DNA from: the human T2T-CHM13v2.0 reference genome, Homo sapiens
Strand: one strand, 5' to 3'
DNA length: 64,000 bases
NCBI RefSeq assembly: GCF_009914755.1
Contig: NC_060932.1
Shown here piece by piece: positions 9,801 through 32,612 of the stretch. Made by a program: the position numbers and the translations under genes. How positions within the stretch are numbered: position 1 is the first letter of the stretch; every line of letters begins with the position of its first letter. The notes under the pieces were generated by a model that was not told the origin of the DNA, made no database searches, and saw only the letters and a list, made by a program, of their open reading frames with translations.

Positions 9801-12800
9801 CAGGCCTTCACCGCCGGCTGCTCGGCGACCTGGGCGGGCGACTGCGTGCCCTGAGCCAGGGCCTCAAGGGTCTCCTGGGTGATGATGCCAGCATCCAGCA
9901 GCCAGACAGCGGGTACCTCACCCCGTGGGCCGGGCACCATGACGCGGGCCTGGGCCAGGAGCTTGGTCTCCTGTACCCACCTCTGCACAGAGGCTAGCAG
10001 CTGTGGCACAGTGGTCCTCCCCTCCTGCACGTCCTCCAGCAGGCCCCTCCGTTGCTCCTCGGTGAAGTGGCAGGAGCTGAGCAGGTCCCAGAGGGATGTG
10101 CCATCCTTGGCCCCCGGCACGGCCTGCAGGCTCCTCTGGACCTGCTCCTCGGTGGGGAGGGCAGGAGCACTTTCTGGCAGGGGCAGGAGGTGAAGGCCAG
10201 AAGTCTCATCCCTGGGGCACTCCTCCAGGAGCTGGGCATAGCTCGTGCGCCCCTGGCCGTCCGGTGTGGGGAAGGTCTCGGAGGAGCTGGACAAGGCTGT
10301 CTCCATCTCCTGGTCAACATAGCCACGCTGAATGGCCACTGGCATGGGGAGGTGGTGGTGGCTGGTGGGGTCAATGATCCCTCCTGTGGCCACTTGAGCC
10401 TCCAGGAGGCGGGCAGCTTGCTCCCAAGGGATGAGACCTTTCTTCATGGCCTGGAACACAGACACCTGCTTCCCAGAGAAGGGGTCTCTGAAGCCAGCAA
10501 TGGCACCCTCAGCCCGCTTCAGCCTGCCATACAGCTCCGGCCCCACCACACCCCTGCGCACGGCCTCATCCACCGAGAGGCTCTCTGGGCTGTGAGGGTC
10601 CATGATGGTTCCGGTGGCCGCCTGGGCCTCCAGCAGGGCCAGGGCCACCCTGGGCCCCAGCAGCTTCTGCCTCATGGCCTGGTAGAGGCTGAGCCGCTGG
10701 CCAGAGGGCAGCAGCCGCACACCGCCCACAGCTCCCAGACCGCACAGGTACCTGCGGACGCCGTCCATGAGTAGGAGGGCCTCCGGGCTGATTGTCCCGG
10801 CCAGCACTTGGTCCAACAGCTGCTGGTCAATGATACCGGCCTCCAGGAGCTGGTGGACGGTGACCCGGCTCCGCAGTGCGGGCAGCATGATGTCCGCCTG
10901 TCTCTGCGTCTCCGCCTCCAGCAGCTTTGCCACCTGCCCCAGCGTGACCTCGCGCTGCCGGTAGCGACGCAGCAGCTGCCTCCTGCGGCCCTCGCTGAAG
11001 TACTCAGAGTTGATCAGCTCCCACGCGGAGACCCTCTGCCCCTGAAACCGTCCATACTTCACGGAGAGCAGCAGGTTCTGGAAGGCCTGCTGGGTGGCAC
11101 TGTCCACCAGCGGGGACTGCGTGCTGCTGAGTGGCAGGAGGTACAGGCCCGTCTCGGGGTCACGCACACAGCGCTCCAGAAGCTGCAGGTACGTGAGGTT
11201 CTCGTGCGTGTTGGGGTCGAAGAAGCCCTTGGTGTCGTCAGAAGGGTCCAACAGGATCAAGTTCAGCATCTGATCGAAGTAGCCGCGCCGGCAGGCCACG
11301 TCCACGGGCACGCGGTGGCTGTGCACGGGGTCGATGACGCCGCCCGTGGCGATCTGGGCCTCCAGCAGGCGGATGCCGTGCTCCCGGACGATGAGGCCCT
11401 TCTGCATGGCCTGGAAGAGGGAGATCTGCTGCCCGGTGTAGGGGTCAGTGTAGCCAGTGACAGCGCGCTCAGCCGACAGCAGCTTCGCGAACACATCAGG
11501 CCCAATGACAGCAGCCCTCAGTGCCTCCTCAACGGAGTGCCCCTTGTTTGCTTTTGGGTCGATGATGAAGCCTGTGGCAGCTTGTGCCTCCAGAAGGATG
11601 AGGGCAGTGCCGGGCCGGAGGAGCCCCTTGCATCGGGCCTCATAGATGCTCAGGCGTTCCTGGGAGCCAGGGAGCAGCAGGCCAGCAATGCAGCCCGTAC
11701 CCTGCAGGTACCTCTGCACCGAGGCCAGGCTGCCCACATCCTTGGCTGTGGCCTGTCCATGCTCCAGCCGCTCGTACAGGTCCTGGTCGATGATCTCGGC
11801 TTTCAGCAGCTCTCCTGGTGTCACGGTGTCCCTCAGCCCAGAAAAGGTGACCCTGGCAGTGGCTGCAGCCTGCTCGAGGGTGGCGCTCAGCTCAGCGGCC
11901 AGCTTCTCCACGGAGAGGGTCCCTTCCTGGTACTGCTGGGCCAGCATCGCCCTCTGCTCTGAGGAGATGGCCTCAGAGAAGAGCAGCTCCCAGAGGGACA
12001 CGGGCCGGCCCCGGAACTTCCCCACAGAGACGGTGGCTGTGGCCGTGCTCAGGGCCTGCCGAGTGCTGTACTTGATGAATGGGGGTCCCTGGGGCTCCCC
12101 TCCCCGGGGTCCCCCTGAGAGTGGCAGGAAGGCAAGCCCGGTCTCTGGGTCGGTGACACAGAGGGCCAGCAGCTGTTCATAGCGCAGGCCGCCGTGCGTG
12201 CCGTCTGAGAAGCTGCCAGCCTGCGAGAGCTGCCGCTGAGTGTCTTCATCCAGGCAGCCGCAGCGCAGGGCGGCCTCCAGGGGCAGCCGGAGCCTGCGTG
12301 CTGGACAGACCAGCCCGCCTGTGGCCAGCTGGGCATCCAAGAGCCGCAGTGCTAGTGGCCTGTCCACTAGCCCCTTCTTCATGGCCTGGAAAAGGGGGAT
12401 TTGGGAGCCACTGAAGGGGTCGTGGTGCCCTGTCACGGCCTGCTCGGCCACCAGGAGCTGCTCATGGAGCTCTGGGCTGACCAGGCCCGCCCTGACTGCC
12501 TCGTCTACCCACAGCCGCTGGCCTGTGATGGGGTCCACCAGGGTGTGGGTGGCAGCCTGGGCCTCTAGGAGTGGCAGCGCGGTGCCCATTGGGAGCAGGT
12601 GCTCGGTGGCAGCCTGGAAAAAGCTCTTCTTGTGGCCTTCGGGCAGCAGGACAACCCCGGCCACGCTGCCGGTACCCTCCAGGTAGCGCCGCACCTCGGC
12701 ACGTGCACTCACGTCCACTGCGGCCAGCCTGCCCTCCCGCAGACCCTGCACAGCCTGCTCGTCCAGGATGCCCACCTCCAGCAGCTCAGCTGCACTCACC

Positions 12801-13522
12801 GCCCCGCCCATGGAGCGGAAGGTGATCTTGAGGGGCAGCAAGGCTAGCCCCGAGCCGGGGGCACGCACACACCTTTCCAGCAGCTGGTGGTATGTCAGCC
12901 GCTCCAGCGTGTTGGGGTCGAGGAAGCGCAGGTCACCTGTGCCAGGCTCAAGCTCTGACAGCTTGTGCCATGTCTCCCGGTCCAGGAGGCCCTGGTGGCA
13001 GGCTGGCTCAGGGGCCACGAGCACTCCCTGGGCGGGGTCCACCAGGCCCCCAGTGGCCAGTTGGACCTCCAGCCAGCTCTGCCCCAGGGCCCTGTCCACA
13101 ACCTCCTTCCCGATGGCCTGAAAGAGGGCCAGCTTCTCACCGCCGTAGGGGTCAGGATAGCCCGTAGTGGCACGCTCAGCGGCCAGCAGCTTCTCCTTCA
13201 GCTCCAGCCCCACCAGACCCTGCTGCAGGGCCTTGGACACAGGGAGCAGCTGGCCCCGGGCGAGGTCCACCAGGCCCCCAGTGGCTGCCTGGGCCTCTAG
13301 CAGAGCCTGCCCGAGCCCAGCAGGCAGGAGGCCCTGCTCCATGGCGGCGTAGACACTCTGGGCCTGGCCCGAGGCCTCCACATACACCCCAGCTATGCTC
13401 CTGGCCTGGGGCCTGGGGGGCGTGCCGGCTCCCAGCGTGGCTGCCATGGCTCTGGGTACACTGGCCTGCTCTGTGCTGTTGGTGCCTGGGACGGGAAGAG
13501 GAGGCAAGGTGTGGCCACTCAT
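2..13522 (-). CDS. EPPK1: Epiplakin, single giant coding exon (3' end lies beyond window start); 11 complete and 1 partial plakin-repeat B domains visible
   Basis: Reverse complement from ATG at 13522 reads [53 protein letters not shown]..., followed by repeated LLEAQAATG / [11 protein letters not shown] / [13 protein letters not shown] plakin motifs. It is absent from the ORF track, consistent with no stop before position 1. Confidence 0.97.
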
Positions 13523-17900: not shown

Positions 17901-18618
17901 GCCGCCTGCCTGAGTCAGGTCAGGACAGACCCTGGCAGCTGCCTGGGCCCACACAGGAGGCAGCAGCCTTAGCTTCTGCCCGGCTGTGTGCCCTTGTGGG
18001 AAGACCCCACCCACCTGCAACCTGCACCATGATCAGAGATCAGTGGCCCCAATAACAAGCTTGGCACAGTGCAGCGGGGGCCCAGGGCAGGGAAGCAGAG
18101 CCCTGGGCCCAAGTGATGAACAGGGCCCTTCCTGCCTCTGCCTCCCACGGGTCTCCAGGCGACCGTGTGACCGCTTACCTGACCCGGAGTGGCCACCCCT
18201 GGGACCGCTCACCCAACAGCAGGCAGCTTCCCCGGATCCGTGACGCCTCCCTCCCGGCAATGTTGCCAGGAGTCACCCCTCTCAATTTGTCGGCCTAGCT
18301 GCCTCCTGGCCTGGGCGTTCCCCACCCTGCAGAGCGTGCCCCGGGCGGTCCTCGCTGCAGGGAAAACCGCTGGGCCTGCGAGACCCCCGCCCCTGGCCGC
18401 CTCTCCCGTGAGGGCTCGGGGCCGGCGCCTCCTCTTCACCGGCGCCCGGGACTCAGGGGCGCCACTTCGGACTCGGAGCTCAAATTGCCCAGGGCGGGAA
18501 ACCTGCCCGGCCAGAGCCCAAGACCCCGCTGGCCGCCGCGCCCCTACCCTGGCCTCGGCGTGCGGCTCCAGCGGGGATCCGGTTTCCTTCGGCGGCCGCC
18601 GCCCCGCCCGGCCCCGAG

Positions 18619-18720
18619 CCCGCACCCGCACCCGCCGCACCTGCCCGCACCCGCCGCACCTGCCCGCACCCGCCGCACCCGCCGCACCCGCCGCACCCGC
18701 CGCACCCGCCGCACCTGCCC
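18619..18720. repeat. GC-rich minisatellite (CCGCCGCAC)n interspersed with CCTGCCCGCAC
   Basis: Directly visible 9-bp units at the exon 1/intron 1 junction. Confidence 0.9.
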
Positions 18721-18746
18721 GCTCGCCGCTCGGTCCGCAGTGTCTC
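18715..18746 (-). other. EPPK1: Probable short non-coding first exon of EPPK1
   Basis: About 25 nt downstream of the TATA-like box: ...gcgagcgggCAG|GTGCGG donor (GT at 18713-18714). The TSS is approximate. Confidence 0.6.
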
Positions 18747-20247
18747 CGCGCGCCCGCTCCGCCCGCATTTCAAGCCCCACAGGCCCCGCCCCCGTCTAGG
18801 GCGGCGCCCAGGTCGGGGCCCCGACGCGGGGCGGGGCGGGGCGGGCAGGTGCCGGAAACCCCGCGCGGCCCGGGCCTGGCGCTTGCACCCCGGGCAAGGG
18901 GCGGCGGCTGGGCAGCCGGGACCCTCCCCTCGTCCCCAGCAGGGAGTCACCGCGAAGGAACGCAGGGCGGGCGCGGAGGCGTCCTGTGCCCTTCAGAACA
19001 GCTTTTTTTTTTTGGGAAAGGAGTTTGGAGTGAAACGCGGACCGGCCAGAGCGGCGGTTTCTATCCCCACAAGCCACTAATGCGGTGCGGGCTGGTGTCC
19101 CTGCCTCCAGCCCCGACCCCACCTTGTCTGCTCAGCTTCCTGGGGACGCTGCTTCACGTCGTGTGTCTGCTGGGTCCAGGGGTCTTCAAGGCTCTCCTTG
19201 GCAGGCCCCCCTGCCCCCATGACGTTGTAAGAGCTGGGATGTCCTGCCTGGAGCAGTGCCAGGCCTCACCCCCCGGTCTGGCTCCTCCACCTGGGCACAG
19301 AGAATGTTCCCTGTCACCCTGGGAGTACCTGGTCCCCTCTCTGAAGCCCATCCTGGCACCCACCTTCCAAGGCTGGGGCATGCCAGAGACACTGGGCATG
19401 GAGGCTCACAGCCTCGGGGGCTGGCCTGGGGGCAGCCTCAGCCTGGCACGGGAACCTTCCATGGATCTTCTGGAGGGCCCTCCCCTTGGCTGCCCCGATA
19501 TCCCAGGTGGGCAGGGCCACGGAAGTACAGGGCCCAAAGCCCCTCCTCCTCTGTCCCCAAGGCCCCTCCTCCTCTGTCCCGTAGTCCTGGAGGTCCTGAG
19601 GGCTCAGGTGCTCCCCACCCCCACAAGTGCCCCCTTCTCCCAAGCTCCAGCCCCCACCTCTGCCTGAGTCATTCTTGACCAGAAAATCATCCAGAGCCAG
19701 CCAGCCACCTCCAATGCACACCATGAGGGTAATTGCAGGCGCCCACGCAGGTGCAGGAGGGACAGGTTAGGCCTTCAGGGGTTAGGGTGCTTGGGACCAC
19801 TGCCCTGGCTCTGCTCTCACCCACCCACCAGGTCCACACTCACACCTGCTCACCCAGGCTGCCTGGACCCTGTCCACACCTGCCACACTGGCCGCACAGC
19901 ATGGCTGCTGCCGACTGCGGGGCCCTGACCCCAGAGGAGCTCTGGTGGAACCCGCATTTCCCCAAGGCACTGCCAGGCCAACCGCATCCATCCCCAGCCC
20001 TGCTCACCGGATGCCTGGACACTGTCTGTGTGGTCTTGCTGGGAGGCATGGTGGTGCTGGCTATGGCCTGTGGCCTGGAGCACACCCCAGAGCCACTTCT
20101 TCCTGCGGTGAGCCATTGCAGGCAGCGCCCCTGCCAGGCCACAAAACCTGGGTGTATGCCAGCCCCTCGCTGCAAGAAGGGGGTGTTAGGCTGGCCAGAC
20201 CAAGCCTTCTTGTGTGCCCAGGGACGGGCCACATGCCTGTCTGCTCC

Positions 20248-20432
20248 TCACCCCTCCGGTATAGGCAGGTGGCACAGAGCTGGCCCTGCTCCGCTGCACC
20301 CATTTCTGCCCGTCACCCCTCCAGTATAGGCAGGTGGCACGGAGCTGGCCCTGCTCCGCTGCACCCATTTCTGCCCGTCACCCCCCTGGTATAGGCAGGT
20401 GGCATGGAGCTGGCCCTGCTCTGCTGCACCCA
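20248..20432. repeat. 65-bp tandem repeat, ~2.8 copies
   Basis: gtataggcaggtggca... recurs at 20259, 20324 and 20389. Confidence 0.9.
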
Positions 20433-21607
20433 CTGGCATCTGTCCCCTGGCTCCTCTCCCTCGGCTTTGTCTTCCTGTGACTCCAGATCCCCTGCCCTGT
20501 GGTGGCCCCCAGCCCAGTGACCTCTGGGGACACCTCTGGGGGCAGACTTGGGTGCCTGCCCTACTCCCCAGGTCCCTGGGCCACTCCCAGTCAGGGCTTC
20601 TGGGAGCCACCACCTCCCCAGGGGCTCCAGTCCAGTGCTTCAGCCCAGCAGTCCCCGGAGCCACAGGCCACTCCTCCAGCCCCCAGGCCTGGGCCTATAC
20701 CACCTACACAGCAAGGAAGGGCATCAGGGAGGGTGTCAGGAGGTGAGCGAGAGGGCTCCCATGCCCAGTACTGCCCACGGCTCTACCCACCTCCTCCTGG
20801 CACTGGCACCTAGCTTCCCCCTGCAGGTCAGGGAGGCTCTCAGAAGACCTGGTCCAAGGAGGGAGGTCCCAGAGCCCCAAGACCAGTGCCCACGCTGCCC
20901 CTGGGCTGCTCCATGGAGTCACCGTGCTGGTTGGAGCCTTTGGCCAGGATCCCCATTGGTCCCTTGGAGCCTGGCATGGCCCAGCTCGAAGGGGAGTGCC
21001 CGCCATTGCTCCATAAAGCATCTGGGAGCAGGGTGTCCCCTCCACGGCACATGGCCCAGAGAGGAGACAGGGCAGATGCAGGCAGGATGGAGGGCCCGGC
21101 GGGAGCGGGTGGGACAGAGCTGAGCAGCAGGCTGACCTCTCCACCAAGGGCCTGGACATAGCAGCCGGCAGCTCCAACCGCAGGCCCAGGTACAGGGGGC
21201 GGGCAGCCTTGGGGGTGAGCCTTCCTCTCAGGCTGGGTGCCCTCACAGCAAAGACATGGGCTGCTCTCCCAGTGGCTCTCAGGGGACACCTGCCATCAGG
21301 GGAGCCCAGTGATGCAGCTGCCTCCGGGGGCAGGGAAGGGCTGAGGTGGGGGTTGGAGCCCTGCTGCCTCTGTCCCCCACGGAACCACCCCCCACATCCC
21401 AAATTCTCTTTCTCCACACCCTCCTCGCTGTGCGTCTCACTGATCCCCCATCCCCAGTCAGCCAGGGTGATGACACGGGCTGGCCCAGCTTCTCCTGCCC
21501 AGGCCTCGGAAGCCGGCCGGCACGAGGAGCACAGCCTCTGCCTGCCAAAGGCCCCCATGCTGCTCGGTCAGGGCCAGGAGAGGAAGGGCCAGAGGATTCC
21601 TCCCAAC

Positions 21608-22010
21608 TGTGGCTTGAACTCCATCCCCCAAATTCCTACGTCGAAGTCCAGACTCCAAATCCTCTGGGAATGTGACCTTCTTTGGAAGCAGGGTCGTTGC
21701 AGATGCGGTTAGTTGGGATGAGGTCATGCTGGAGTAGGCGGGCCTCATCCCATGTGCCTGGTGTGCTTTCAAAAAGGGGCATCGGACACAGACGAAGACC
21801 CACAGAAAGGGAAGATGATGTGAAGATAACAGGAAGAAGATGCCGAGGAGAAGCCTGGAGCTGGGTCTCACCTCATAGCCGCTGAGGGAAATAGCCCTGC
21901 CCACATTTCCATTTTAGACTCTGGCTTGGAGAGCTTAGGGTCGATAGTTTCTGTTGTTTGAGTCACCCCATTGGTGGTGGTTGGTTAGGGCAGCTCCGGG
22001 AAACTCAAAC
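21608..22010 (+). mobile_element. MaLR (MLT1-type) solo LTR
   Basis: gaatgtgaccttctttggaagcagggtcgttgcagatg...gatgaggtcatgctggagtagg; ends ...gttagggcagctccgggaaactcaaaca. Confidence 0.75.
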
Positions 22011-24082
22011 AGTCCCCAAGCCAGGGAAATAAGCCAGGGAGAGCAAGGGCAGAGGGGGCCGCAGGGTCCAGGTGTGAGGCAAACCCAGCTTCTCCCATTT
22101 TATAGAAGACAGAGGAGGAGGAGGGGGAGGAGGAAGGGGAGAAGGAGGGGAGGAGAAGGGGGAGGAGGAGGGGAGGAAGGCTCAGCCAGGACGGAACCCA
22201 CTCTGGGCCTCGAGGTTGCATTAAACACAGGAAAGGAGGCCCCAACCTGTATCTCAGAGTGAAATTTTTTCCTATCTTGCTCCAAATGTATATTCTTTCC
22301 AGTTGCCACATAAATGGAAGTCATACGTAGCAATACCATGCTCTTAACTGGGAATTCTACTTGATTGAAAAGGTAGAAGGCACACCCAGGTACCCAGGCC
22401 CTCTCTGCCCCACCCCAACACAGTTTAGAGGCTGGGTAGTGCTGTTCTGAGAGGTGCTGTCCTTGGGCTGGCTAGACCCACCTGTGGGGGCAGCCAGGAC
22501 CACCTGTACCTCCAGCTCTGACCCCATGGGAGAGCAGCACAGCCATGCATGGGGGATTGCAGTTGTTAGAAGGATGGGAGCTGAGCCATGAAATCGGCAC
22601 CAGAAATCGCTGCTCAACCCCGCCTGTCCCTGCCTTCCTTCTCCCCTGCCATACCCTCTTCTCCCTAAAGGGTGGGTGTCCTCTGGCTAGGCCCCTCCCA
22701 GCAGCTCCAGCCCAGAGCGTCCAAGTTGTCCAGCCTGCCCGTGGTCATCTCTCCTCCCGAGGGACTCTGGGGTGACTTCCTCCCTCCCTCAATCCTCCAA
22801 GGCACCTGCAAGGCTGGGGCCCAGCGGCCCTCTGGCCAAAGCCTCTCCCGCAGCCCCACCAGGCTTGCTGGCCTGGCCCCCAGGTGGCCTTCAGCCCCGT
22901 GTCCTGCTGCTGAGGCCCTGACCAGGGTTCCCCCAGGGATTCCTCCTCTGCCTAAAACACAGCTGGGGAGAGACAGTGCCACCTGAGTGCCAGTCTTGGG
23001 CCTGGCACCCTCCCCACCTGGCCCCAGTCCCCTCCAGAGCCTGACACGGGCAATCTCTAGGTGCCTGGTAGGAAGTGCTGTCTCGGGGCCACCACTGGGT
23101 GTGCCGCTGCCTGGCCGGGGGCTTATGCCTCCCATGCCATACTGGCCACCCGGGCCCTCAGCTGGGGGGGAGCCAGCATCGTCCTGGGCGGCCTGGCCTG
23201 GGGACTGAAAGCCCTCGGCACTCCCAGCCACCCTTGCTGCTCAGGGCTGTGAGCTGCAGCCGCCCCAAAGGGTACAGGCAGGTGGAAACCCTTCCTCTGG
23301 GGTGGGCCAGGTGGGCGCAAACACCTGCTCCTGGTTCTTGAGTCCTTGACGTTCAGAGGCTGCTCCTGCCAGTGTGATCTGGGCCTCCAGGCCTGCTGGG
23401 GATGAGGGCTCAGCAGACCCCATCCTTGGGGCACAAAGCAGCTCCCGCTGGGCACAGGCAGCACCATCCTTGGTCAGCCTCATGCAGTCCCGGAGCCGCT
23501 GCAGCGGCTGCTCCACCAGCTGAGCTTCATCCCCTGCCACGCCACAGGGAAGGGGCCAGGGGCCAGGGGCCAGGGGCCAGGGGCGGGGACACGGGCATTG
23601 GGAGGGGGCCTTGGACTGGGGGCCTGGGACGTGTCCCCCTGGGGCAACATCACAGACATCAGCACCAGGATGGCGCCCCAAGGCATGGCGGATGAGGGGC
23701 TGGGGAGGGGCTTTTCTGGAAGCACTCGGGACTCCTTGGGGGTCCAGCCAGCCGGGCTGAGGGACAAGGCTGAGGGCCCCTTACCCATGAGCAGCTCCAC
23801 CAGCCTCCGGCCTGTCTACAAGACCTTCACGTCCTGGATCCGCGCGGCAGCCTCGTCACACACATGCTGCAGACACAGGCTGGGGGCACATGTGTGCTGG
23901 GGACATGGAGCCCTGCGCAGCCTGCCGCCTCTCCCTGGGCCCAGTTCCTACCTGCAGGCACTGTACGGCCCCTCCTGGCCCTCGGGCTCCAGCCGCCCTG
24001 CCACAGCGCAGCCAGGAGAGTGTCCTGGCCACTTCGAAGCTGTGGGCTGCCAGGAAAAGTTGCTCCAGGACCCCCGAACTCC

Positions 24083-24617
24083 GGACCAAGACCGGGCAGC
24101 CGGCATTGCCCTCCCCACATGGTGCCCTCCCCACATGGTGCCCTCCCCGCACAGGTGCCCTCCCCACACGGTGCCCTCCCCACTCACGCCCCCCACAGCC
24201 TCACCTGGGGACCAAGACCGGGCACCGCAGGGCCCTCCCCGCACGGGTGCCCTCCCTGCTCATGCCGCCCACAGCCTCACCTGGGGACCAAGACCGGGCA
24301 GCCGGCAGTGCCCTCCCCACTCACGCCCCCCACAGCCTCACCTGGGGACCAAGACCGGGCAGCCGCAGGGCCCTCCCCACTCACGCCCCCCACAGCCTCA
24401 CCTGGGGACCAAGACCGGGCAGCCGCAGGGCCCTCCCCACACGGTGCCCTCCCCGCTCATGCCCCCCACAGCCTCACCTGGGGACCAAGACCGGGCAGCC
24501 GCAGGGCCCTCCCCACTCACGCCCCCCACAGCCTCACCTGGGGACCAAGACTGGGCAGCCGCAGGGCCCTCCCCGCACGGGTGCCCTCCCCGCTCATGCC
24601 CCCACAGCCTCACCTGG
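24083..24617. repeat. VNTR with ~60/79-bp units (cacagcctcacctggggaccaagaccgggcagccgcagggccctcccc...)
   Basis: About 7 copies of cacagcctcacctgg with internal ggtgccctcccc sub-repeats; fills one pseudogene intron. Confidence 0.9.
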
Positions 24618-27600
24618 CCTCTGCCTGCTGCACCAGGCAACCCCGCTGTGCACACGGCTCCGAGGGGCTCCCGGCTTCCTGCAGCCTCTGCTCCACCAGA
24701 GGCACCCTTGCCCCCAGCAGGTACAGGAGCAGCTGCTGGGACATGGGGGCGGGCTGAGCGCAGGGGGCTGGTGGCCTCTGTCCTGCCCTCCCACCAGTGC
24801 CCTTCACAGGGGTCAGCAGCCACGGGGACAAGAGCCACATCTTCCACCAGAGTCTGCCATCTGTCTGCCCCCCAGGGAGGGTCGGCTGTGACCTGACACC
24901 CAGCGGCATCATTGGGAATCAGTGGCTTGAGCTGAGATTCAGAGGCGATTCAGAGGTGTCCCAAAGGTGTCACTACTCAGCCCTGCCCCCCGCTCCCTGC
25001 ACCTCCTGTTCCTGCAGCTGCCACAGCATGAGGGACCAGAGGCCATGAAAGGCCTGAGCTCCTCCATACCATCCAGCCAGCTGCGAAGGGCATCCAGGGA
25101 CCCTGGGGATGCCTGCAGGAGGAATGACAGCTCCAGGGGCTGCCCTCCCCCCTACCCTGGCTGCTCCTGCCTCACCAGAGCCATCTGCCCCCCTCACTCA
25201 CCAGGCTTCAGTTCCACAGCCTGTCACCGCCATCTCCATCACCAGTGTCTGTCACCTCAATGGCACGGGGGCTCCACCAGGCCCAGGAGCTCCCAGAACA
25301 CCGCTGGCGGCAGGGACCCCCCAGACTTGGGGCCTAGCCCCCGTGTGGCTCCTCCTCAGCCCCCCGCAGCCCGACCATGAGGCCGGGTTTCCCCGTGGTG
25401 AGCACTGTGGGGCGAGGAGACCTGAAACAGATCTGGAAGAGGCCACCCAGCCCGCCCAGCCCCCTCGGCCCTGTGCTCAAGGCTGGGGCTAAGGCCACAT
25501 CCTCAGACTTACTGTCTGTGGCCACTGCTGCAGCAGGCCTGGGGGACGGAGGGAGCCCAGAGCCCAGGGGTCAGCTCCACCTTTACTGACGTCCCTGCCC
25601 CCAGCCTTCCCTCCCAGCCACAGCTTGGCCCGTCCCATCCAGCTGTCAGTGTGGCCAGTGCAGCCAGTCGAGCCACAGCCTCAGTGTTTTCCTCTTGACC
25701 CTGCCTCCTGCCGCCACTTGTTTCCAGGGAAACCAGGACCCGGCCCCAGCCATGTAAGTAGGAGAGACTGGGAAGGGGCTTCTCACCCTCCCCCTAGTTT
25801 CTTGCACCTCGGGGGAGGTGAATAGGCCAGGGTTGGAGGAACTCACTGCTCCCAAGGCCCGTCTGGCCCACTGGACTGAGCCCCCACGCTGGGCAGGCAG
25901 CCAGAGGGAGGGATTGCTGGCGGTGGATGCCAGGCCTGCCCTGGGAGGATCTGGGGGCGGGCAACATGGGGGTGCTGATCACACTCCTGTGGGCCAGGGA
26001 CTGAGGAGCTACAGGTGGGCTCTCCCGCCTCCTCCTCTGCAGCCATGCAGACCTCAAGGATCCCTGTCTCCTCACCTACACCCTCGATAGCCTCTCCATT
26101 CCCCAGCTGCCCCACCCCTGGGGACCCGACAGCCCCCACCCAAGACTTCCCACCACCCCAGACTGGCCGGTCTCGCTGCCAGGAACCTCCACCCTGTGGC
26201 CACGCCTTTCCCACCCAGGCCTGGAATGAACCTGCCCCTCCCCAGCCTGGAGCCCCCCTCTCCCAGGCCTGACAATGGGGAGAGGTGACTCCCCAGCGCA
26301 GGAGTGGGCGCCCCTGGTCCCTGCAGGTGCAGGGTGGTCAGCTGTGTCCGCAGGTGCCAGTGCAGACCCTCCCCCCACCCGCTGAGTCCTTCATCCAACA
26401 CTGGCCTCTACCGAGGAGTGGATGCTGTGTTGGGCACACAGGCCAAAGCCCACCTGTGCCCACCACTGTGCTGGGCCCCAGGCCCAGCAGGAGCCACCGC
26501 TGCTTGGGTAAGAGAGGGGACAGAGAGCAGGGGCCCAGCCTCCGGGCAGTCTGGACAGACACTGGGAGTCCCTGTGGGGCCCAGGCCCACCCCTGCCCGG
26601 GCATGTCTTTCTCACAGAGTTTGTGCTGCTGTTGCCTGGGGAACTTTCCATCAGAAGATGCTGGGTGGGGTGGGTAGGCAGGCCGGGCGGGCCCGCAGAC
26701 GCGCTGTGGGTGGATGGGTGGTGGACGCCTCTCCCGGGAGGGGCTGCTCTGGCCCACACCCTCGGACGGCCCACCCTGCCCACTCGTACCCCCACCTCCA
26801 GGCCCAGAGGTGCCAAGCATGTGAGCCCCACAGGATCCACGGTGGGCATCCCAGCACAGCCGCCAGGGAGGCCGGCACGTCTGCACCAGGGCCTGTACCA
26901 GGCAGGCCTCATGACCCCTCCTCTTCTCTCCTGGGGAGGAGGGGCAGGCGCCCTGGCTCCTGACGCCCTGGGTCGCCTCCCCGCCCAGGCAGGGCATGTG
27001 GGGTCTCTGTCAGAGCCTCCACAGGGCCGGCCACAGGGCTGAGGCCCAGGGTAGCCTCCAGCCACTCCTGCGCGGCACCTGGGGCAGGGTCTGGGCTGCA
27101 CCTGGCTCCTCCTGGAAAGGAACAGCAATGCTCGCCAGGCAGGACCCCAAAGCACAGCGGCCACCCCGCCTCCCCCAGGGGCTCTGACGGCCACTTTTCG
27201 AGTTGCGGGCACACCCAGCTCCTGGCAGCTCAGCTGACCACAGGGTCCCTTTCCACAGCGAGGCTTCGCCATCATAGCAGGGGCCCCGCCCTCCACGCCT
27301 GCGCCTGCACACAGAAGTAGGTGCCTTGCTGGGGCCCGAGGCCCCGTAGCTTGGGGCTCGTCCTGGGTGCTGCCACGGGACCTTCACACAAGCCTGGACG
27401 CTGCCATGGGTGGTCACGCAGGCCGCCTCTCTGCCATGACCTCCCTTCTCCCTGTCCTCTCCTTGCCCATTCAAGCTGACATCCTCTCCCAAGACCTCCC
27501 CTGGCTTCGTGCCCCTGACCCAGGCTGGGGACAGAGGTCTGGCCCCACCTGCACCCGAGGCTTTCTGCCTTCAGGGTATCACAGCCCCAGCACCGGGGCA

Positions 27601-28604
27601 GGGAAGCAGGCCCAGGAGGACCCTGTGTGCATGGCCTGAGGGCAGGCACAGATGAACCCGAGCAGGGAGGGGGAACACAGGCAGGGCCAGCACTGAAGAC
27701 GCAGCCCAGCCCAGTCCTAGCCCCGGCCGGCGCCCGAGGGACCTCCCAGTGGACACGCTGTGCGTGTCTGACAGCAGCCGTGGACCGCAGGCACACGGGT
27801 GTGCTCACGGGGCCTGGAGCAGTGCCAGGGTCTGGGGGGCCTGCGGAGGCAGGAGGCTTAGGGGCCGGAGTGTGCCAGGGCACAGGGCCTGGGGCTGGGA
27901 CTCCTGCTTCCCCTCTGGCCCAGGACAAGGAGCCGATGGGCACAGCAGGCACTCACTGAGGCACTTCTCCTCTCGGGGGGCTCCAAGCCCCTGGGAGGAA
28001 GGGGCTGGCAAGGGGAGGAGGGGTCCCAGGGAGAGCCAACTCCAGCAGAGACCTCGGCTGGCAGGAGTGGGGGTATAGGTTAAGATAAGAAGTGGCTTTT
28101 CTTTGCAAGATCTAAAGATTCACTAGGAAAAAAATATGGCAAGAATAATCGTTTCCACACTGACCACCAGCTCAGGTGTCTCTGTGATAGAAAAGCCCAG
28201 AGAGTTGGGGTCTTGGGCCCGAGGGGCCTGCACCCCATCCCAGTCGGGCAGAGCTCCTGGGCCCCTCGCAGGGCTGGAGAAGTGGTCACACGGCCGGTCC
28301 AAGGCCCTGCGGCCCCTTGGAGCAAGGGGTGGAGCCCAGACTCCAGCCGGTCCCCAGAAACCCAACTCAAACTGTCTTTAAAAACAGAAAATAAAAAAGG
28401 CAGCTCAGCTGGTAGCACTGACAGGGTGGGGGCGGGGTGCTGGAGCAGGGGGTTGCGTAGCGTCAGGCTGCGGCCTCCAGCCCGGGGAGCCCTGAGGGCC
28501 AGGACATCCAGGGCCAGGCCAGCACGAAGCCGACAGGACAGAGGAAGCCCATGAGCCTCTCTCCCGAAATTCTAGAAAAAGCACGTTAGTTCTCATCGGA
28601 TGGC

Positions 28605-29040
28605 CTGTTGTTCTGAGCTGAACTGTGTCCCCCAAAAAGACATGCCGAAGTCCTAATCCTAGTACCTGTGGACGCAACATTACTTGGAAATAGAGCACTT
28701 GCCAACGTCATCAAGTGAAGATGAGGTCACTAGGGTGGGTCCCAATCCTAATGGACTGGTGTCCTTACAAGAAAGCGCTGCCCTGTGAGGACGCGCCAGG
28801 GCACGCGCGGTGACGGAGGCAGAGGCTAAAGAGCTGTCGCCGCAGGCCCAGGACGGCCACAGGTTGGTAGCAAACAGCCAGAAGCTGAAGGAGCAGGGAG
28901 AGGTCGGCTCAGAGTTTCAGAGGAGCAGGCCCTGCCGACACCCTCTTCACAGGCTCTGGCCTCCAGAATTTCCAGATAACACGTCTCTGTTGTTTGAGCC
29001 CCCACTTTGTGGTGCTTGCTTGCGGCAGCCCCGGGAGACC
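28605..29040 (+). mobile_element. MaLR (MLT1-type) solo LTR
   Basis: ctgaactgtgtcccccaaaa...gaagtcctaatcc...ttggaaatagag...aagatgaggtca...ggcctccagaat...ttgtttgagcccccactttgtggt. Confidence 0.8.
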
Positions 29041-32000
29041 GGTCCACCTGAGCCATCTTGGGGGCCTGGAACGGGGGGCAGGGTCAGCCCGGCTGAGCTG
29101 TGGCCTGAGGGTGGGGAGGGAGTGGTTCCCCAGAAATGTCACTGCCAGGATCTGGGGCAGCGTGTGCTGAAAGATGTATCGGGGCAGGGCCTGGGAGGGG
29201 GTGAGCGCATCTCAGCAGACGCCGGGGAGGGAGAGGCGGAGGGCAGGGACTGGATTCATTCCAGCCCTCTGCATGCCGCAGCAGCCACCGCCTGAGACAA
29301 ACCCCCGAGGAGAGGGAACCCGCTGGCTGAGCCCAAGAGTCTGAGGCATGGTTGCTCAAATAAAAATGGACCTCGGCTGTGAAAACAGCACAGTTCACTT
29401 TTCGCCCACCTGTGTTTGTGGTCCGAGGTGGTGCCAGTTGTGTGACTATGGTTATGGACTCTAGGAGGCCTCGTGTGGCTTCAGAGGGCTGAGGGCGACG
29501 CTGGAGGACACGCTGAGTTCCTGATGGTTCCGTCGGGCTGAGCTGCGTCCGGATAAATGTGACAGGAAGCAGCTCGGACACACTGATGGCTGGAGGCCCT
29601 GCAGCTCCTGCTGCTTGGCATGCGCCGCGGGCCTGCGTGTCAGAGCCGCCTCTCTAGCTCGGCTCTTGCGGTCATGCTGGCCTTGGTCTCCACATGGCTT
29701 TGGGTTGGCTGTTCTTCGTGCCATTTTCTTTCTGGCTCCGTCTCCATCTCTGGAGTGGGAGGTGTCTGAACAGGCATGCGGAGCATCACCAGGTCCCAGT
29801 GCCACGACCCCCGGCACGGTGGGTCGCCATGATGCTGTGTGGCCTGCCAGGTGATAGGCGCCCTTGGGCCACATGGTGACAGAGGGTGCGAGGGTGCCAC
29901 TACCCCGTGATGAGCTGTAAACACACATTGTTATCCATCCCAGGAAAACACAAACTGCTTCTGTTCCTCTTTCTTGGCAGGTAAGGGAAGGGATGCCCTC
30001 CCGGGCTCTGGGAGATGTGCGTGTGCGGGATGCCACGTGACACAGCTGAACCTGAGGGGCCACTTTTGGCAAAGGCAGTGCGACAGGCCCGTGTCACGGG
30101 ACCCGTGGTCGCCGTGGTGATCCGCGTGGCAGCGCCGGGACTGCGGCCCTCAGGTGGTGGAGCCACCCCGCAGAGTCGCGCTCAGGGACAGCCGGGTGAC
30201 CACGGGCTGTGGAGCTGGGCACTGCGCTCCAGGGCAGGGCTTATGCCCTGAACCCGTAAGCAGTGCATCCTCAGCCTCTCCTCCCCAGTAAGTAGAACGC
30301 ATGGGCCTGGGGTGAAGAGGTGGAAATGGGAGGGGCCACACTCGCCATCCCTGCCGGTGCCCTCTTGCAGATCCTGCATCCCCTCCTGCAACCAGATACC
30401 GCCAAGGGCCGAGAGCCCAGTCTGAGCAGAGGACACTGAGGCCACCGCCACGCCAGGGCAGCTACTCCATTTTCAAGTGAACCTGAGCACAGCTCCTGGG
30501 TTGCATGAGGGGTGGGCTTGGTGGTGCCAAGCAAGAAAGGACAGGCATAGCGCCGGGGCTGACCGCGTGGGTGTGGGCTCAGGACCTGGAGGCCGTAGCT
30601 CGAGCACTCAGTCCAGCAGCCAGGAGCGGCTCCAGCAAGGGCCAGGCTGTGACCAGGGCTGGCTCAGACACCGCCGTGATCCCAGGAGGAATGAGCTGAT
30701 GGTGGGCTCCAGGGGTTACCGCCAGAGAGTAAGTATCCAGGCCTGGAACCTCCTGTGGGAAGGGGGTTGGCAGCTTCCAGGAAGGCCCTGCCTCCTGCAG
30801 CCCCGGTGGGCCCCCTCGCACCTGTATCTACTCCAGCAGGTACATTCCCGGGCCTCTCCAACACCCTGCACACCTGTCCAGTGCTCCCACGTCTCCGGCC
30901 GCCTGCCTAAGCACGGCTGCTGGCCCGATGTCCTTCCTCAGTACCGGATGCCTGCTTTCAAATGCTGTGTGGGGCTCATGAGCCATGGGCCCCGAACCAA
31001 CTGGGAAAGACCCAGCCTCCCCAATCTGTGGCGGGGTCTGTGCCTGATCCTGGCTGACTCGGGCCCGTCCTTGGCTCTCAGTCCACTGCAGTTGGTTTGG
31101 GGCCCACAGCTCATGAGCCCAGCACAGTCCCATGCCCTGCTGCCTCCGAAAGCTCCCTCGTCTCTGGCAGTGGGGGCCACGTCGGGGCTGTGATCTCCGC
31201 TGCAGCCAGAGAACTGTGGTGGGCAGCGTCCCCAGCGTCCCCTGTGTTCAGGTGGGCTGCGACACCGGGCCCCTCCTGACGTCCTGGCACCCGCCTTTCA
31301 CTCCCTCCTTCCTTGTCACCCCCAGAAGCACTCCTCCTCGCAGCCCCTGACGCAGGCTCTGCCGACCCCCAGCTGTGCAGCCAGCTGGGCCCCCAGGACC
31401 GCCAGTTCCACCTCCCGGAACTACCTTCCTTCCTCCACCGCACACTGGCCAGGGAGGGGCCGTCAGATGTTAGCAAACTCTTCCTGCCCAAGAGGCCACA
31501 CCTGCCAGCCCACTCTCAAAATCAGCCCTGGAGAAACTCCCCAAGCAAGAAGGGGTGTGGACTCCAGAAACCGCCCAGTGAGGCCCCGGTAGGGGGAGCT
31601 GTGGGCGGTGGGCTCTGCGCTTGCTGCTCCCCGGCCTGGTCTGCAGACCATCATCCACCCCTTCACCGCAGGCCACTGCCGCGGTCGATGGTGGCTTTGA
31701 GGAAAACCCTGGCTGGGTGACCAGTTGTGACAAGAGCTGGAGGCTAACATCGCCGGGCCCCTCCTCCAGCCACTGTCCTCTAAGCCCTGGGGCTGCAGGA
31801 AAGCAACCTGGGAAGCCCACCTCCCTCAAATGCATATGGGGGGATCCATGGCGCCCTGGCCCCCAGGACAGACCCTGTAGCCTGCCAGACAGCGGGGCAG
31901 CCGTGAACGTGCAGTGGGGGCGTGGGCCGCATCAGGCACAGACACGGCTGAGCGGCAGGTGCTGTGGAGGCAGCCAATGAGCCAGTGGACTTTCACATGA

Positions 32001-32468
32001 ACAAGGGGCGTGACCAGGCCGGAAGCAAGGGTGAGAGTTTGTTTAGGAAAAGTACCAGACCTGCTAGTGCAGGGACGCAGGCGGGGTGCCCAGCATCCCG
32101 GGGGCCAGGCCAGGGCCTTGCTGCTGGTGGCTGTGAAGGAAAAGGAGACCAAAAATATACAAGAAAATCCAGTGCTTTGGAGAATGGAGGTGAGAGGAGG
32201 CCCGGGAACCGCGGACTCGGGTTCCCCGGAGTTGGGGTGAAGGGGAAGATCTCACACAGAAAGGGTCAGGGGTCAGGGAGGCCACGGGGGAGACCCTGAA
32301 AACCCCACCCCGTGACCCAGAAGCCTCAGAGGCAAGAGGAAAATGGAAGGAACGTTGGGATAGAGAGAAACCTCCTAAAAGGGGCGTCACAAGGGCCTCC
32401 GATTTCTCAGCAGCAGCCCTGGCTAGGTGAGGACAGCTGCGTCTTGCTCTGAAGGAAAGAATAGCGGG

Positions 32469-32612
32469 CCTTAGACCTCCTTCCCCACCTTACAACTCCG
32501 TCCCCACCTTCGCCCTCTGTCCCCGACCTTAGACCTCCATCCCCGACCTTACGCCTCCGTCCCGATCTTAGACCTCCGTCCCCAGCCTCAAAGCTTCATC
32601 TCCGAACTTAGG
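32469..32612. repeat. Degenerate ~20-bp tandem repeat (ccttagacctccgtcccga-like)
   Basis: About 7 imperfect copies. Confidence 0.7.

What the first reader, a model, noticed from the sequence alone, without database searches (positions are those of the whole stretch)
19658..19755. GAS2/GAR signature exon remnant ~900 bp upstream of the EPPK1 TSS
The minus strand reads ACC CTC ATG GTG TGC ATT GGA GGT GGC TGG CTG GCT CTG GAT GAT TTT CTG GTC AAG AAT GAC TCA GGC AGA G|GT = TLMVCIGGGWLALDDFLVKNDSGR, against the recalled MACF1/DST motif [24 protein letters not shown], ending at a phase-1 GT. Just upstream, LRGR-LQ joins only through a frameshift and no AG acceptor is evident. This is the most diagnostic single piece of the fossil gene.
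Basis: partly seen in the sequence, partly recalled or inferred. Interest (0 to 1): 0.85.

Follow-up and report, generated by a model that had tools for sequence, protein, structure and literature searches.

The report
Dead human copy of mouse BC024139
The stretch is a genuine leftover of the tail of a microtubule-binding (GAR) domain, and belongs to a broken six-kilobase human copy of a little-known plakin-family gene that rodents, bats and camels still appear to keep.

Summary
Window 19730-19659 (minus strand) reads TLMVCIGGGWLALDDFLVKNDSGR, followed by G|GT. It matches Pfam GAS2 (E 6e-6) and the MACF1 GAR domain (E 8e-7). In a whole-genome search it is the only GAR-like site besides the six known GAR genes, and 0 of 200 shuffles come near its score.

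It is not an isolated exon. It is the second-last exon of a decayed gene running from 25392 to 19188, between PLEC and EPPK1 on their strand. The intact counterparts are predicted proteins of about 770 aa in rodents (mouse "cDNA sequence BC024139"), bats, camels and aardvark. Their nearest longer relatives are the proteins of about 2,300 aa with spectrin repeats, EF hands and a GAS2 domain in marsupials, monotremes, reptiles, birds and fish. These fit MACF1CTL, a gene that one paper calls absent from placental mammals.

All placental copies keep only the last third of the GAR domain and lack its conserved cysteine. The missing front part is therefore an old shared feature, not a human frameshift.

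The human copy is dead. The start codon place reads CGG, there are 8 in-frame stops, and 4 substitutions fall at positions invariant in 59 relatives. It is a unitary pseudogene relic: real, of moderate interest, and not found described in print.

The parts
19659..19730 (-). The finding itself: 24 codons, TLMVCIGGGWLALDDFLVKNDSGR. This is a relic of the C-terminal third of a spectraplakin-type GAR domain (the 'GAR tail') and forms the second-last coding exon of the dead gene.
   Evidence: Second codon positions are 24/24 identical to MACF1 and DST, against 9-12/24 at third positions. Identity to the consensus is 18/24 for placental, 18/24 for non-placental MACF1CTL-type and 17/24 for MACF1/DST-type sequences.
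19656..19658 (-). Last exon base G (19658) and donor GT (19657-19656), phase 1.
   Evidence: The place and phase match MACF1 and DST (CGA G|gtaagg, AGG G|gtaagg) and no other human GAR gene. The orthologues splice here...NDPGR|AKGR. Their read-through forms continue with G.
19731..19790 (-). Upstream flank of the same exon. Frame 0 reads ...P*PLKA*PVPPAPAWAPAI, with stops at 19784-19782 and 19769-19767. The +1 frame reads LHLRGRLQ (19756-19733). AG dinucleotides lie at 19774-19773 and 19791-19790.
   Evidence: This stretch corresponds to the poorly conserved ...QV[AS]RG[AST] stretch of the placental orthologues.
19490..19657 (-). Relic of the last intron, 168 nt, with acceptor AG at 19491-19490. 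It contains a 23-bp tandem duplication at 19533-19580.
   Evidence: Its length is a multiple of three and it has no stop, which accounts for the stop-free 150-codon frame at 19766-19317.
19188..19489 (-). Relic of the terminal coding exon: (A)KGRALQKIHGRFPCQAEAAPRPAPEAVSL...PSSYNVMGAGGPAKESL, with 2 in-frame stops.
   Evidence: tblastn with P0013 residues 701-779, E 2e-8; reading from the acceptor. The placental consensus is AKGRTSQKIHERF, the non-placental one VKGRTNLKI[KN]EKY and the MACF1 one ARGRTNLELREKF.
20365..20703 (-). Exon relic matching P0013 residues 506-627 (VV*AQAWGLEEWPVAPGTAGLKHWTGAPGE...), with 1 stop.
   Evidence: E 1.4e-15.
22685..23014 (-). Exon relic matching P0013 residues 339-438 (...CLSPAVF*AEEESLGEPWSGPQQQDTGLKATW...), with 2 stops.
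   Evidence: E 2e-11.
23322..23531 (-). Spectrin-repeat-like exon relic (DEAQLVEQPLQRLRDCMRL...GLKNQEQV), with no stop.
   Evidence: E 1e-12; E 3e-16 against chinchilla P0009. It also matches opossum P0045 residues 375-453 directly, E 3.6e-5.
23789..24074 (-). Two further spectrin-like exon relics, at 24074/24042-23952/23968 and 23908-23789. The second has 1 stop (KVL*TG).
24607..24789 (-). Spectrin-like exon relic (...VEQRLQEAGSPSEPCAQRGCLVQQAEAR*G). A stop stands where the orthologues have W.
   Evidence: (E 1.5e-9).
25053..25115 (-). Spectrin-like exon relic, QASPGSLDALRSWLDGMEELR.
   Evidence: It matches opossum ALQSWLDDMEELQ directly, 77% identity, E 0.034. The chinchilla counterpart matches a MACF1 spectrin exon, E 0.013.
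25222..25395 (-). Relic of the first coding exon. CGG (25395-25393) stands where the orthologues have the start Met (MGN[RP]AS...), followed by GNPASWSGCGG.... It has 1 stop and a probable frameshift: SSWAWWSPRAIEVTD at 25294-25247 lies in another frame.

Best explanation
The stretch is the best-preserved piece of a unitary pseudogene. [quoted passage not shown]

Inferred: before the placental radiation this gene lost about 1,440 middle residues. These included the EF hands, the first two-thirds of the GAR domain and the conserved cysteine of DPCR. What remained is a gene of about 770 aa: N-terminal spectrin-like repeats, a 26-residue GAR tail and a short terminal exon.

Shown from predicted proteins only: this short gene persists with open frames in rodents (mouse BC024139), bats, camelids and aardvark, and its GAR tail is highly conserved there.

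Shown: in the human lineage the gene is dead. The start codon place reads CGG, there are 8 in-frame stops in the aligned parts and at least one frameshift, and the sequence has changed at positions that are invariant elsewhere.

Inferred: the decay amounts to roughly 0.12-0.14 substitutions per site. This fits inactivation early on the primate stem, after the split from rodents.

The 72-bp piece makes no GAR domain and most likely does nothing as coding sequence today. It was detectable because it derives from the most conserved exon of the family and because the human lineage evolves slowly.
For: Identity as a GAR tail.

Ancient coding history rather than a recent copy: second codon positions are 24/24 identical to MACF1/DST, while third positions are only 9-12/24 identical. 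MACF1 against DST gives 14/24 at third positions.

Spectraplakin-type donor.

Whole fossil gene: 10 colinear minus-strand matches to beaver P0013 from 25392 to 19188, E 1e-15 to 3e-5, containing 8 stops. The same layout appears with chinchilla P0009.

Named orthologues: 33 proteins (rodents, three phyllostomid bats, two camels, one hippopotamus model). In 11 of 12 scanned, GAS2 is matched only from HMM position 41-45 to 68/69.

Link to MACF1CTL:
- The best longer relatives of P0013, after two epiplakin-fused models, are proteins of marsupials, monotremes, a lizard, a bird and fish with spectrin, EF-hand and GAS2 domains.
- Beaver residues 87-362 align with opossum 210-497 (39% identity, E 2e-36), and beaver 682-727 with opossum 1945-1990.
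- Opossum hits the human window directly at the GAR tail (E 1.8e-5) and at two spectrin relics.

Synteny:
- The hub table places the relic between PLEC and EPPK1 on their strand.
- PMC8782857 (section 6 and passages read) places MACF1CTL there in non-placentals.
- Fused 'epiplakin' gene models of Fukomys and Orycteropus carry both GAS2 and plectin repeats.

Diagnostic residues: LMV is shared with the MACF1CTL lineage, against VMV in MACF1/DST. The human G at the cysteine position and the human next-exon start (A)KGRALQKIHGRF, read from the acceptor, fit the placental type, whose consensus is AKGRTSQKIHERF.

Death in human:
- CGG at the Met place.
- 4 changes at the 16 positions invariant in 59 relatives.
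- Human differs at 31 of 112 columns invariant in 6-8 placental orthologues, or 20 of 87 without the frameshifted first exon.

No gene is listed here in the RefSeq table supplied by the hub.
Against: No DNA of other mammals could be read. Shared versus human-specific lesions, and dN/dS in the supposedly intact orthologues, were therefore not measured.

The orthologues are almost all automatic gene models with several isoforms. Their middle parts (for example P0009 residues 395-607) look like translated intron. Evidence for expression is limited to the mouse gene's name as a cDNA sequence and one passage naming its mRNA.

That the ~2,300-aa proteins are the MACF1CTL of the paper rests on domain content, length and species.

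That primates in general lack the gene rests only on no primate appearing among the 67 named hits of two length-limited, word-filtered searches. This is weak evidence.

The date rests on recalled neutral rates.

The last two exons keep donor, acceptor and frame. The stretch also lies inside a RefSeq-listed enhancer (19454-20096, hub table). A residual non-coding role is therefore not excluded.
Confidence: 0.87

Rival explanations
1. The gene was lost once in the placental ancestor, as published. On this view the human piece has been a neutral fossil of full-length MACF1CTL for more than 100 My, and the rodent, bat and camel 'genes' are gene-prediction artefacts laid over equally dead DNA.
For: PMC8782857 states that MACF1CTL was lost in a common ancestor of placentals (passages read). 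The orthologue models have isoforms that read through the last intron (P0009, P0018, P0027, P0037) and poorly conserved middle parts. Pfam finds no spectrin repeat in them.
Against: Thirty placental sequences from three superorders keep the 24-residue tail within 1-4 changes of their consensus, with 16 positions invariant, and 15 share an identical next-exon start, AKGRTSQKIHERF. Human shows 4 changes at the invariant positions and 8 stops. Such a contrast is not expected if all lineages had decayed freely for equally long, and rodents evolve faster than primates. Frames of ~770 aa stay open in many species. Mouse has a cDNA-based gene name and a reported mRNA.
Confidence: 0.06
2. The relic is dead as a gene but has been kept as regulatory DNA. 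On this view the last two exons, 0.45-1.0 kb upstream of the EPPK1 start, were co-opted into an EPPK1 enhancer or promoter-proximal element. This adds to the best explanation rather than excluding it.
For: The hub table lists a RefSeq enhancer at 19454-20096 that covers the GAR tail, the intron relic and the start of the terminal exon. None of 24 second codon positions has changed against MACF1/DST. Donor, acceptor and frame are intact here but not elsewhere in the gene. Exon remnants acting as enhancers after loss of the host gene are documented in PMC2831330 (abstract read).
Against: The tail carries 5 changes from the placental consensus in 24 codons, 4 of them at otherwise invariant positions. 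This matches the decay of the other exons: 20 of 87 conserved columns changed. There is therefore no sign of extra constraint. The good preservation is explained by the high conservation of the ancestral exon. No conservation track or functional data could be consulted.
Confidence: 0.12
3. The human locus is still a working gene, either an unannotated protein-coding gene or a micro-protein that uses the GAR-tail exon.
For: A stop-free frame of 150 codons runs from 19766 to 19317, with an ATG inside TLMV (my reading). Donor and acceptor of the last intron are intact.
Against: The start-codon place reads CGG, and 8 stops and a frameshift lie in the upstream and terminal exons. The GAR frame has stops at 19769-19767 and 19784-19782 with no AG after them. 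The open frame follows from an intron of 168 nt, a multiple of three. No gene is listed in the RefSeq table supplied.
Confidence: 0.03
4. The piece is a secondary copy of a MACF1 or DST exon, made by retroposition or a DNA-level insertion.
For: It matches MACF1/DST well at the protein level: 17/24 identities.
Against: DNA identity is only 51/72 and 50/72, with third positions near saturation. The intron donor is kept, so it is not a processed copy. L at position 2 and the next-exon sequence follow the MACF1CTL lineage rather than MACF1/DST. Nine further exons of a different gene lie colinear with it. The DNA is single-copy in the genome.
Confidence: 0.01
5. The resemblance arose by chance in G+C-rich DNA, where GGA GGT GGC TGG readily gives GGGW.
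For: The genome-wide HMM E-value is only 0.37, and an unrelated site scores nearly the same.
Against: 0 of 200 shuffles reach half the observed score. The MACF1 exon search finds only true GAR genes plus this site. The donor place and phase are conserved, the next exon is homologous, and the whole gene is colinear with the orthologues.
Confidence: 0.005

Closest known systems
MACF1CTL (MACF1 carboxy-terminus-like), the 'eighth plakin gene' of PMC8782857 (Sci Rep 2022;12:1112)
   Same: It has the same place and strand, between PLEC and EPPK1. It is a GAR domain of spectraplakin type with LMV rather than VMV. The N-terminal spectrin repeats are homologous: beaver 87-362 aligns with opossum 210-497, and opossum matches the human relics at 25091-25053 and 23540-23319.
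   Different: The paper describes it as absent from placental mammals, humans included. Here a truncated descendant is found as predicted genes in placentals and as a decayed copy in human. The human and placental version lacks about 1,440 residues, including the EF hands and the first two-thirds of the GAR domain.
Mouse BC024139 ('cDNA sequence BC024139', 'GAR domain-containing protein') and its rodent, bat and camel orthologues
   Same: The exon order matches over the whole length. The truncated GAR tail is the same (HMM 41-45 to 68/69). The DPCR cysteine is lost in both. The terminal exon begins AKGR..QKIH.RF in both.
   Different: The human copy has no start codon, carries 8 stops and has 4 changes at invariant tail positions, so it is a pseudogene. 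The function of the intact gene is unknown. In the searchable library it appears only as a named transcript, in 3 papers (one passage read).
GAR domains of MACF1 and DST (PDB 5ve9, 5x57)
   Same: Identity is 17 of 24 residues. The exon ends at the same codon and phase. All 24 second codon positions are identical.
   Different: Only HMM positions 46-68 of 69 are present. The cysteine and proline of DPCR are replaced (DSGR). R and V of MVRVGGGW are replaced (MVCIGGGW). It is a paralogue that diverged long ago, not a copy.
Exonic remnants that outlive their host gene (PMC2831330, NAR 2010)
   Same: An exon-derived stretch is still recognisable after its gene died, and it lies beside another gene in annotated regulatory DNA.
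   Different: Those remnants are conserved as non-coding elements with tested enhancer activity. Here no constraint beyond neutral decay is shown.

Membership tests
GAS2/GAR domain (Pfam PF02187) | Profile match above the curated cut-off | tested here: met
   The 25-aa piece scores 26.4 bits against a cut-off of 21.3, E 6.3e-6. The 150-aa frame scores 21.0 bits, just under the cut-off. The whole-genome scan gives 22.2 bits.
GAS2/GAR domain (Pfam PF02187) | Whole domain present (about 69 profile positions, encoded by two exons in all six human genes) | tested here: not met
   Only HMM 46-68 is matched. No first-half exon was found: Smith-Waterman with the MACF1 GAR_A exon scores 31 on the minus strand and 29 on the plus strand. 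A Pfam scan of 140 plus 148 minus-strand frames over 19785-55183 gave no GAS2 hit.
GAS2/GAR domain (Pfam PF02187) | Residues invariant in all relatives ([8 protein letters not shown], DPCR) | tested here: not met
   Human reads MVCIGGGW and DSGR. This gives 4 changes at the 16 positions invariant in 59 sequences, and the cysteine is replaced by G.
Spectraplakin-type (as opposed to GAS2/GAS2L-type) GAR exon | ALD[ED]FLVKND motif, and an exon end one base after the R codon of DPCR | tested here: met
   only MACF1 and DST among the six human genes have this donor. MACF1 scores 31 bits and GAS2 14 bits.
MACF1CTL / BC024139 lineage (orthology) | Position between PLEC and EPPK1 on their strand | tested here: met
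   The hub table places PLEC at 55432.. and EPPK1 at ..18744, both on the minus strand; the relic spans 25395-19188 on the minus strand. PMC8782857 section 6 gives the same position for MACF1CTL. Fused epiplakin models carry GAS2.
MACF1CTL / BC024139 lineage (orthology) | Lineage-specific residues: LMV rather than VMV; next exon [AV]KGRT..KI rather than ARGRTNLELREKF | tested here: met
   human reads TLMV and (A)KGRALQKIHGRF.
MACF1CTL / BC024139 lineage (orthology) | Colinear homology of the other exons | tested here: met
   10 matches to P0013 in order and 7 to P0009. Opossum matches directly at 3 places.
MACF1CTL / BC024139 lineage (orthology) | Gene tree placing the placental short proteins with non-placental MACF1CTL | not tested
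   Only ranked E-values are available: marsupials 1e-44, monotremes 1e-38, lizard 5e-28, bird 2e-21, fish about 1e-20. No tree was built.
Functional protein-coding gene in human | Start codon, open frame and usable splice sites throughout | tested here: not met
   CGG stands at the Met place. There are 8 stops in the aligned parts and a frame change inside exon 1.
Processed pseudogene of MACF1/DST | No introns and DNA close to the parent | tested here: not met
   The donor and a 168-nt intron relic are kept. DNA identity is 51/72.

The most novel reading that the evidence does not exclude
MACF1CTL, called the eighth mammalian plakin gene and published as absent from placentals, was not lost there. 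On this reading it was cut down to a gene of ~770 aa with spectrin repeats and a GAR tail (mouse BC024139). That gene has stayed under selection in rodents, bats, camelids and Afrotheria, and died separately on the primate lineage. Mouse would then have a plakin-family gene that human lacks. The 26-residue GAR tail without its cysteine would have a function of its own, and the human remains beside the EPPK1 promoter may have been taken over as EPPK1 regulatory DNA.
Probability: 0.3. Interest if true: 0.6.

Novelty: new member of a known kind. Interest (0 to 1): 0.45.

Why it matters
The finding corrects the picture of the plakin family. The only paper found on MACF1CTL (1 paper holds the name) says the gene is absent from placental mammals. 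Here its shortened descendant is traced in many placentals, and its wreck is found in the human genome at the expected place.

This gives three things:
- A dated example of stepwise gene decay: first domain loss with survival of the gene, then death in one lineage.
- A gene difference between mouse and human that matters when mouse cytoskeleton or epithelial data involving BC024139 are carried over to people.
- A concrete test of whether a 26-residue GAR tail can work without the rest of the domain.

For genome annotation, it explains the stop-free 150-codon frame and the GAS2 signal upstream of EPPK1 as pseudogene remains, not a new gene.

Tried and rejected
1. Paralogue-based search for further relics. 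I took all 3,290 plus-strand frames of at least 20 aa from the last 200 kb of MACF1 and ran tblastn against the window. Outside Alu and plakin-repeat matches, only the GAR tail was found. Smith-Waterman with 10 conserved MACF1 3' exons gave 9 of 10 at noise level. I first concluded from this that the piece stood alone. That was wrong: the other exons are too diverged from MACF1 and appeared only with orthologues (onwards).

2. Pfam scans of 140 minus-strand frames (19785-33232) and 148 (33455-55183, Alu-like frames left out). No spectrin, EF-hand or GAS2 match was found. Pfam also finds no spectrin repeat in the intact orthologues. The spectrin nature of the N-terminal part rests on three things: the Pfam domains precomputed for the marsupial relatives, a weak MACF1 match (E 0.013), and the protein-atlas lead (scores 0.90-0.94, spectrin/nesprin clusters).

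4. The search for homologous proteins with the 52-aa human frame and 'longer' lengths returned nothing.

The paper's supplements (Fig. S4, Table S1), which hold the MACF1CTL alignment and accessions, were also closed.

6. Processed copy, recent duplication and chance were all rejected (see the rival explanations).

7. Neutral fossil since the placental ancestor. I held this reading. I dropped it when the placental orthologues appeared.

8. A literature search for EPPK1, PLEC and 'unitary pseudogene' found no paper among the 8 listed that holds the term together with either gene. A search for MACF1, 'unitary pseudogene' and placental found nothing relevant in the 10 listed.
Full report
**The observation**

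On the minus strand, window 19730-19659 reads ACC CTC ATG GTG TGC ATT GGA GGT GGC TGG CTG GCT CTG GAT GAT TTT CTG GTC AAG AAT GAC TCA GGC AGA. This translates to TLMVCIGGGWLALDDFLVKNDSGR and is followed by G|GT. The motif is printed in the PDB alignment and can be read from the MACF1 and DST loci.

**Is it more than chance?**

- Pfam GAS2 (PF02187) matches the 25-aa piece at E 6.3e-6 and 26.4 bits, over profile positions 46-68 of 69.
- Against the PDB, the MACF1 GAR domain scores 31 bits (E 8e-7), while GAS2 itself scores 14 bits.
- In the whole genome, the Pfam model finds the two GAR exons of each of the six known genes: MACF1, DST, GAS2, GAS2L1, GAS2L2 and GAS2L3. This site comes next at 22.2 bits and genome-wide E 0.37. 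An unrelated site scores nearly as high at 21.9 bits. The family model alone would therefore not settle the matter.
- A genome-wide search with the 40-aa MACF1 exon returns 7 of 7 candidates as the six genes plus this site. The site ranks fifth at E 0.0016, above the true exons of GAS2L3 and GAS2.
- Two hundred dinucleotide shuffles of the surrounding 19.6 kb give a best Smith-Waterman score of 36.9 ± 3.3 (maximum 47), against 94 for the real sequence.
- The DNA is single-copy.

**What kind of GAR piece is it?**

It is of the spectraplakin type. The exon ends one base after the arginine codon of DPCR, followed by GT. Among the six human genes only MACF1 and DST do this.

Codon by codon against MACF1 and DST, identities are 24/24 at second positions, 15-17/24 at first positions and only 9-12/24 at third positions. 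MACF1 against DST gives 14/24 at third positions. This pattern indicates an old paralogue that evolved as coding sequence for most of its history. It does not fit a recent DNA or RNA copy.

**A wrong turn**

Using MACF1 as the probe, I found nothing else in the 37 kb between EPPK1 and PLEC.

- tblastn with 3,290 frames from the last 200 kb of MACF1 hit only this piece outside repeats and plakin repeats.
- Nine other conserved 3' exons, the two EF-hand exons and the first GAR exon among them, scored at noise level.
- Pfam scans of 288 minus-strand frames were empty.

At that point the piece looked like a lone survivor.

**The literature**

PMC8782857 (Sci Rep 2022; section 6 plus passages of the introduction and discussion read) describes MACF1CTL. 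[quoted passage not shown] Its supplements could not be opened. It is the only paper in the library that holds the name.

**The orthologues**

A profile-free search of 1.84 billion representative proteins with 30 residues of the window gave 8 hits at E ≤ 0.001. Five were GAR tails:

- Two are of an intact type: ...[19 protein letters not shown][IT][13 protein letters not shown].
- Three have G in place of the cysteine.

One of the three, P0009 (692 aa), maps colinearly onto the minus strand of the window from 25294 to 19650.

A search with P0009 returned 33 proteins that their sources name:

- Uncharacterised LOC genes of chinchilla, naked mole-rat, degu, beaver and many muroid rodents.
- 'cDNA sequence BC024139' of jerboa, blind mole-rat, hamster and mouse.
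- 'GAR domain-containing protein'.
- Three phyllostomid bats, two camels and one hippopotamus model.
- No primate.

In 11 of 12 of these proteins scanned, Pfam finds GAS2 only from profile position 41-45 to 68/69. The GAR domain is thus truncated in the same way as in the human piece.

**The fossil gene in human**

The beaver protein P0013 (779 aa) gives ten colinear matches on the minus strand:

| P0013 residues | Window coordinates |
|---|---|
| 2-68 | 25392-25222 |
| 84-129 | 25115-24990 |
| 104-167 | 24789-24607 |
| 189-212 | 24042-23968 |
| 205-245 | 23908-23789 |
| 248-317 | 23531-23322 |
| 339-438 | 23014-22685 |
| 506-627 | 20703-20365 |
| 681-707 | 19730-19650 |
| 701-779 | 19502-19188 |

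These matches contain 8 in-frame stops.

- Where the orthologues begin MGN[RP]AS, human reads CGG GGA AAC (25395-25390).
- The first exon also changes frame.
- The last intron is intact in form. Its donor is G|GT at 19658/19657 and its acceptor AG is at 19491-19490. It is 168 nt long, and splicing would keep the frame...NDSGR-AKGRALQKIHGRF..., against the orthologues' ...NDPGR-AKGRTSQKIHERF.
- Because 168 is a multiple of three and the intron has no stop, a 150-codon stop-free frame (19766-19317) runs through exon, intron and exon. It is a by-product and not evidence of a gene.

**Link to MACF1CTL**

The longer relatives of the beaver protein are, in order of score:

- Two gene models called epiplakin (Fukomys 1,708 aa, Orycteropus 3,789 aa). 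Both carry GAS2 and plectin repeats, meaning the short gene is fused to its downstream neighbour EPPK1.
- Proteins of about 2,000-2,400 aa with spectrin, EF-hand and GAS2 domains, with E-values falling in phylogenetic order: marsupials (1e-44 to 9e-36), monotremes (1.5e-38, 1.5e-33), a lizard (5.5e-28), a bird (1.7e-21) and many fish.

Beaver residues 87-362 align with opossum 210-497 (39% identity, E 2e-36). Beaver 682-727 aligns with opossum 1945-1990. The placental protein thus corresponds to MACF1CTL without about 1,440 middle residues.

Opossum also hits the human window directly at three places: the GAR tail (E 1.8e-5), 25091-25053 (E 0.034) and 23540-23319 (E 3.6e-5).

That these long proteins are the paper's MACF1CTL is inferred from domain content, length and species. 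Platypus and the caecilian Rhinatrema appear in both sets. Accessions were not compared.

**The GAR tail across 59 sequences**

| Group | n | Consensus of the tail | Start of the next exon |
|---|---|---|---|
| MACF1/DST type | 4 | [24 protein letters not shown] | ARGRTN... |
| Non-placental MACF1CTL type | 25 | [TSC]LMVRVGGGW[TI][13 protein letters not shown] | VKGRTNLKI... |
| Placental | 30 | [AST][LM]MVRVGGGW[VA]ALDE[FY]L[VI]K[NY][DE]P[GVND]R | AKGRTSQKIHERF |
| Human | 1 | TLMVCIGGGWLALDDFLVKNDSGR | (A)KGRALQKIHGRF |

- Human shares L at position 2 with the MACF1CTL lineage. It shares the lost cysteine and the AKGR..QKIH.RF exon with the placentals.
- Sixteen of the 24 positions are invariant in all 59 sequences. 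Human has changed four of them: R5C, V6I, E15D and P22S.
- The placental sequences differ from their own consensus by 1-4 residues.

**How long has the human copy been dead?**

In columns invariant among 6-8 placental orthologues, human differs at 31 of 112. Leaving out the frameshifted first exon, it differs at 20 of 87. If about three-quarters of nucleotide changes alter the residue, this corresponds to roughly 0.12-0.14 substitutions per site of unconstrained evolution.

Recalled estimates of human-lineage neutral divergence since the primate-rodent split are of the same order. I therefore infer that the gene died early on the primate stem. This is an inference only. No primate DNA could be compared, and the absence of primates among 67 named hits is weak evidence.

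LRGRLQ (19750-19733) lies in the +1 frame, two bases before ACC. A DNA alignment to DST supports homology of CTGCACCTGCG with CAGCAACTGCG (QQLR), with a net loss of 7 bases.

In all placental orthologues, however, this part of the GAR domain is already replaced by a poorly conserved ...QV[AS]RG[AST] stretch. Their profile match also starts at position 41-45. The loss of the front of the domain is therefore old and shared.

Whether human has an additional small frameshift just upstream of TLMV cannot be decided without DNA from other species. In the GAR frame, human has two stops (19784-19782 and 19769-19767).

**How it works**

As coding sequence the piece does nothing. It is a pseudo-exon.

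A residual regulatory role is possible, because it lies inside a RefSeq-listed enhancer (19454-20096, hub table) less than 1 kb from the EPPK1 start. However, its decay matches that of the other exons. Nothing here shows constraint.

**Status in print**

- BC024139 occurs in 3 papers of the library. In the one passage I read, it is listed as an up-regulated mRNA, 'GAR domain-containing protein'.
- No paper found links it to MACF1CTL or to a human relic.
- Supplements of PMC8782857 that I could not see may bear on this.

**Verdict**

This is a real, correctly read GAR remnant. It is the most diagnostic exon of a roughly 6.2-kb unitary pseudogene, the human counterpart of mouse BC024139, which is the truncated placental descendant of MACF1CTL. 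As a kind of object it is ordinary. It is of moderate interest because it revises the published history of this plakin gene.

Noticed in passing
window 24107-24617: A minisatellite with units of 60, 76 and 136 bp, at 83-97% matches, lies inside the fossil gene between the exon relics at 24789-24607 and 24074-23952. In translation it gives the repeated '...GCGGREWGGPCGCPVLVPR*' strings seen.
   Followed up: no
window 20240-20432: A 65-bp unit repeated 3.0 times at 92% matches overlaps the 3' part of the exon relic at 20703-20365.
   Followed up: no
window 19317-19766 (minus strand): A stop-free frame of 150 codons spans exon relic, intron relic and terminal exon relic. It exists because the intron relic is 168 nt long and has no stop. 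A gene finder could mistake it for a gene.
   Followed up: yes
P0042 (Fukomys) and P0043 (Orycteropus): Public gene models named 'epiplakin' carry an N-terminal GAS2 match in front of the plectin repeats. The short MACF1CTL-derived gene has been fused to EPPK1 by the predictor, or there is real read-through transcription.
   Followed up: partly
G000:C8:54703908-54703964 (+): Another sub-threshold GAS2 profile hit in the genome: 21.9 bits, E 0.46, profile positions 36-54. It is probably chance. It did not appear in the search with the MACF1 exon.
   Followed up: partly
window 56832-59029 and 12227-13408: The large plakin-repeat exon of MACF1 (frame C1:39199093-39204573) matches the plakin-repeat exons of both PLEC and EPPK1 at 24-28% identity. 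This is the expected family relationship.
   Followed up: no
window 18400-19000: G+C is 0.79-0.83 around the EPPK1 first exon, falling to 0.63-0.65 over the relic. The terminal exon relic ends about 440 bp from the EPPK1 start.
   Followed up: no
P0036/P0037 (Camelus), P0027 (Lemmus), P0062 (Nothobranchius), P0068 (Rhinatrema); [quoted passage not shown] The family has no settled name in the databases.
   Followed up: no
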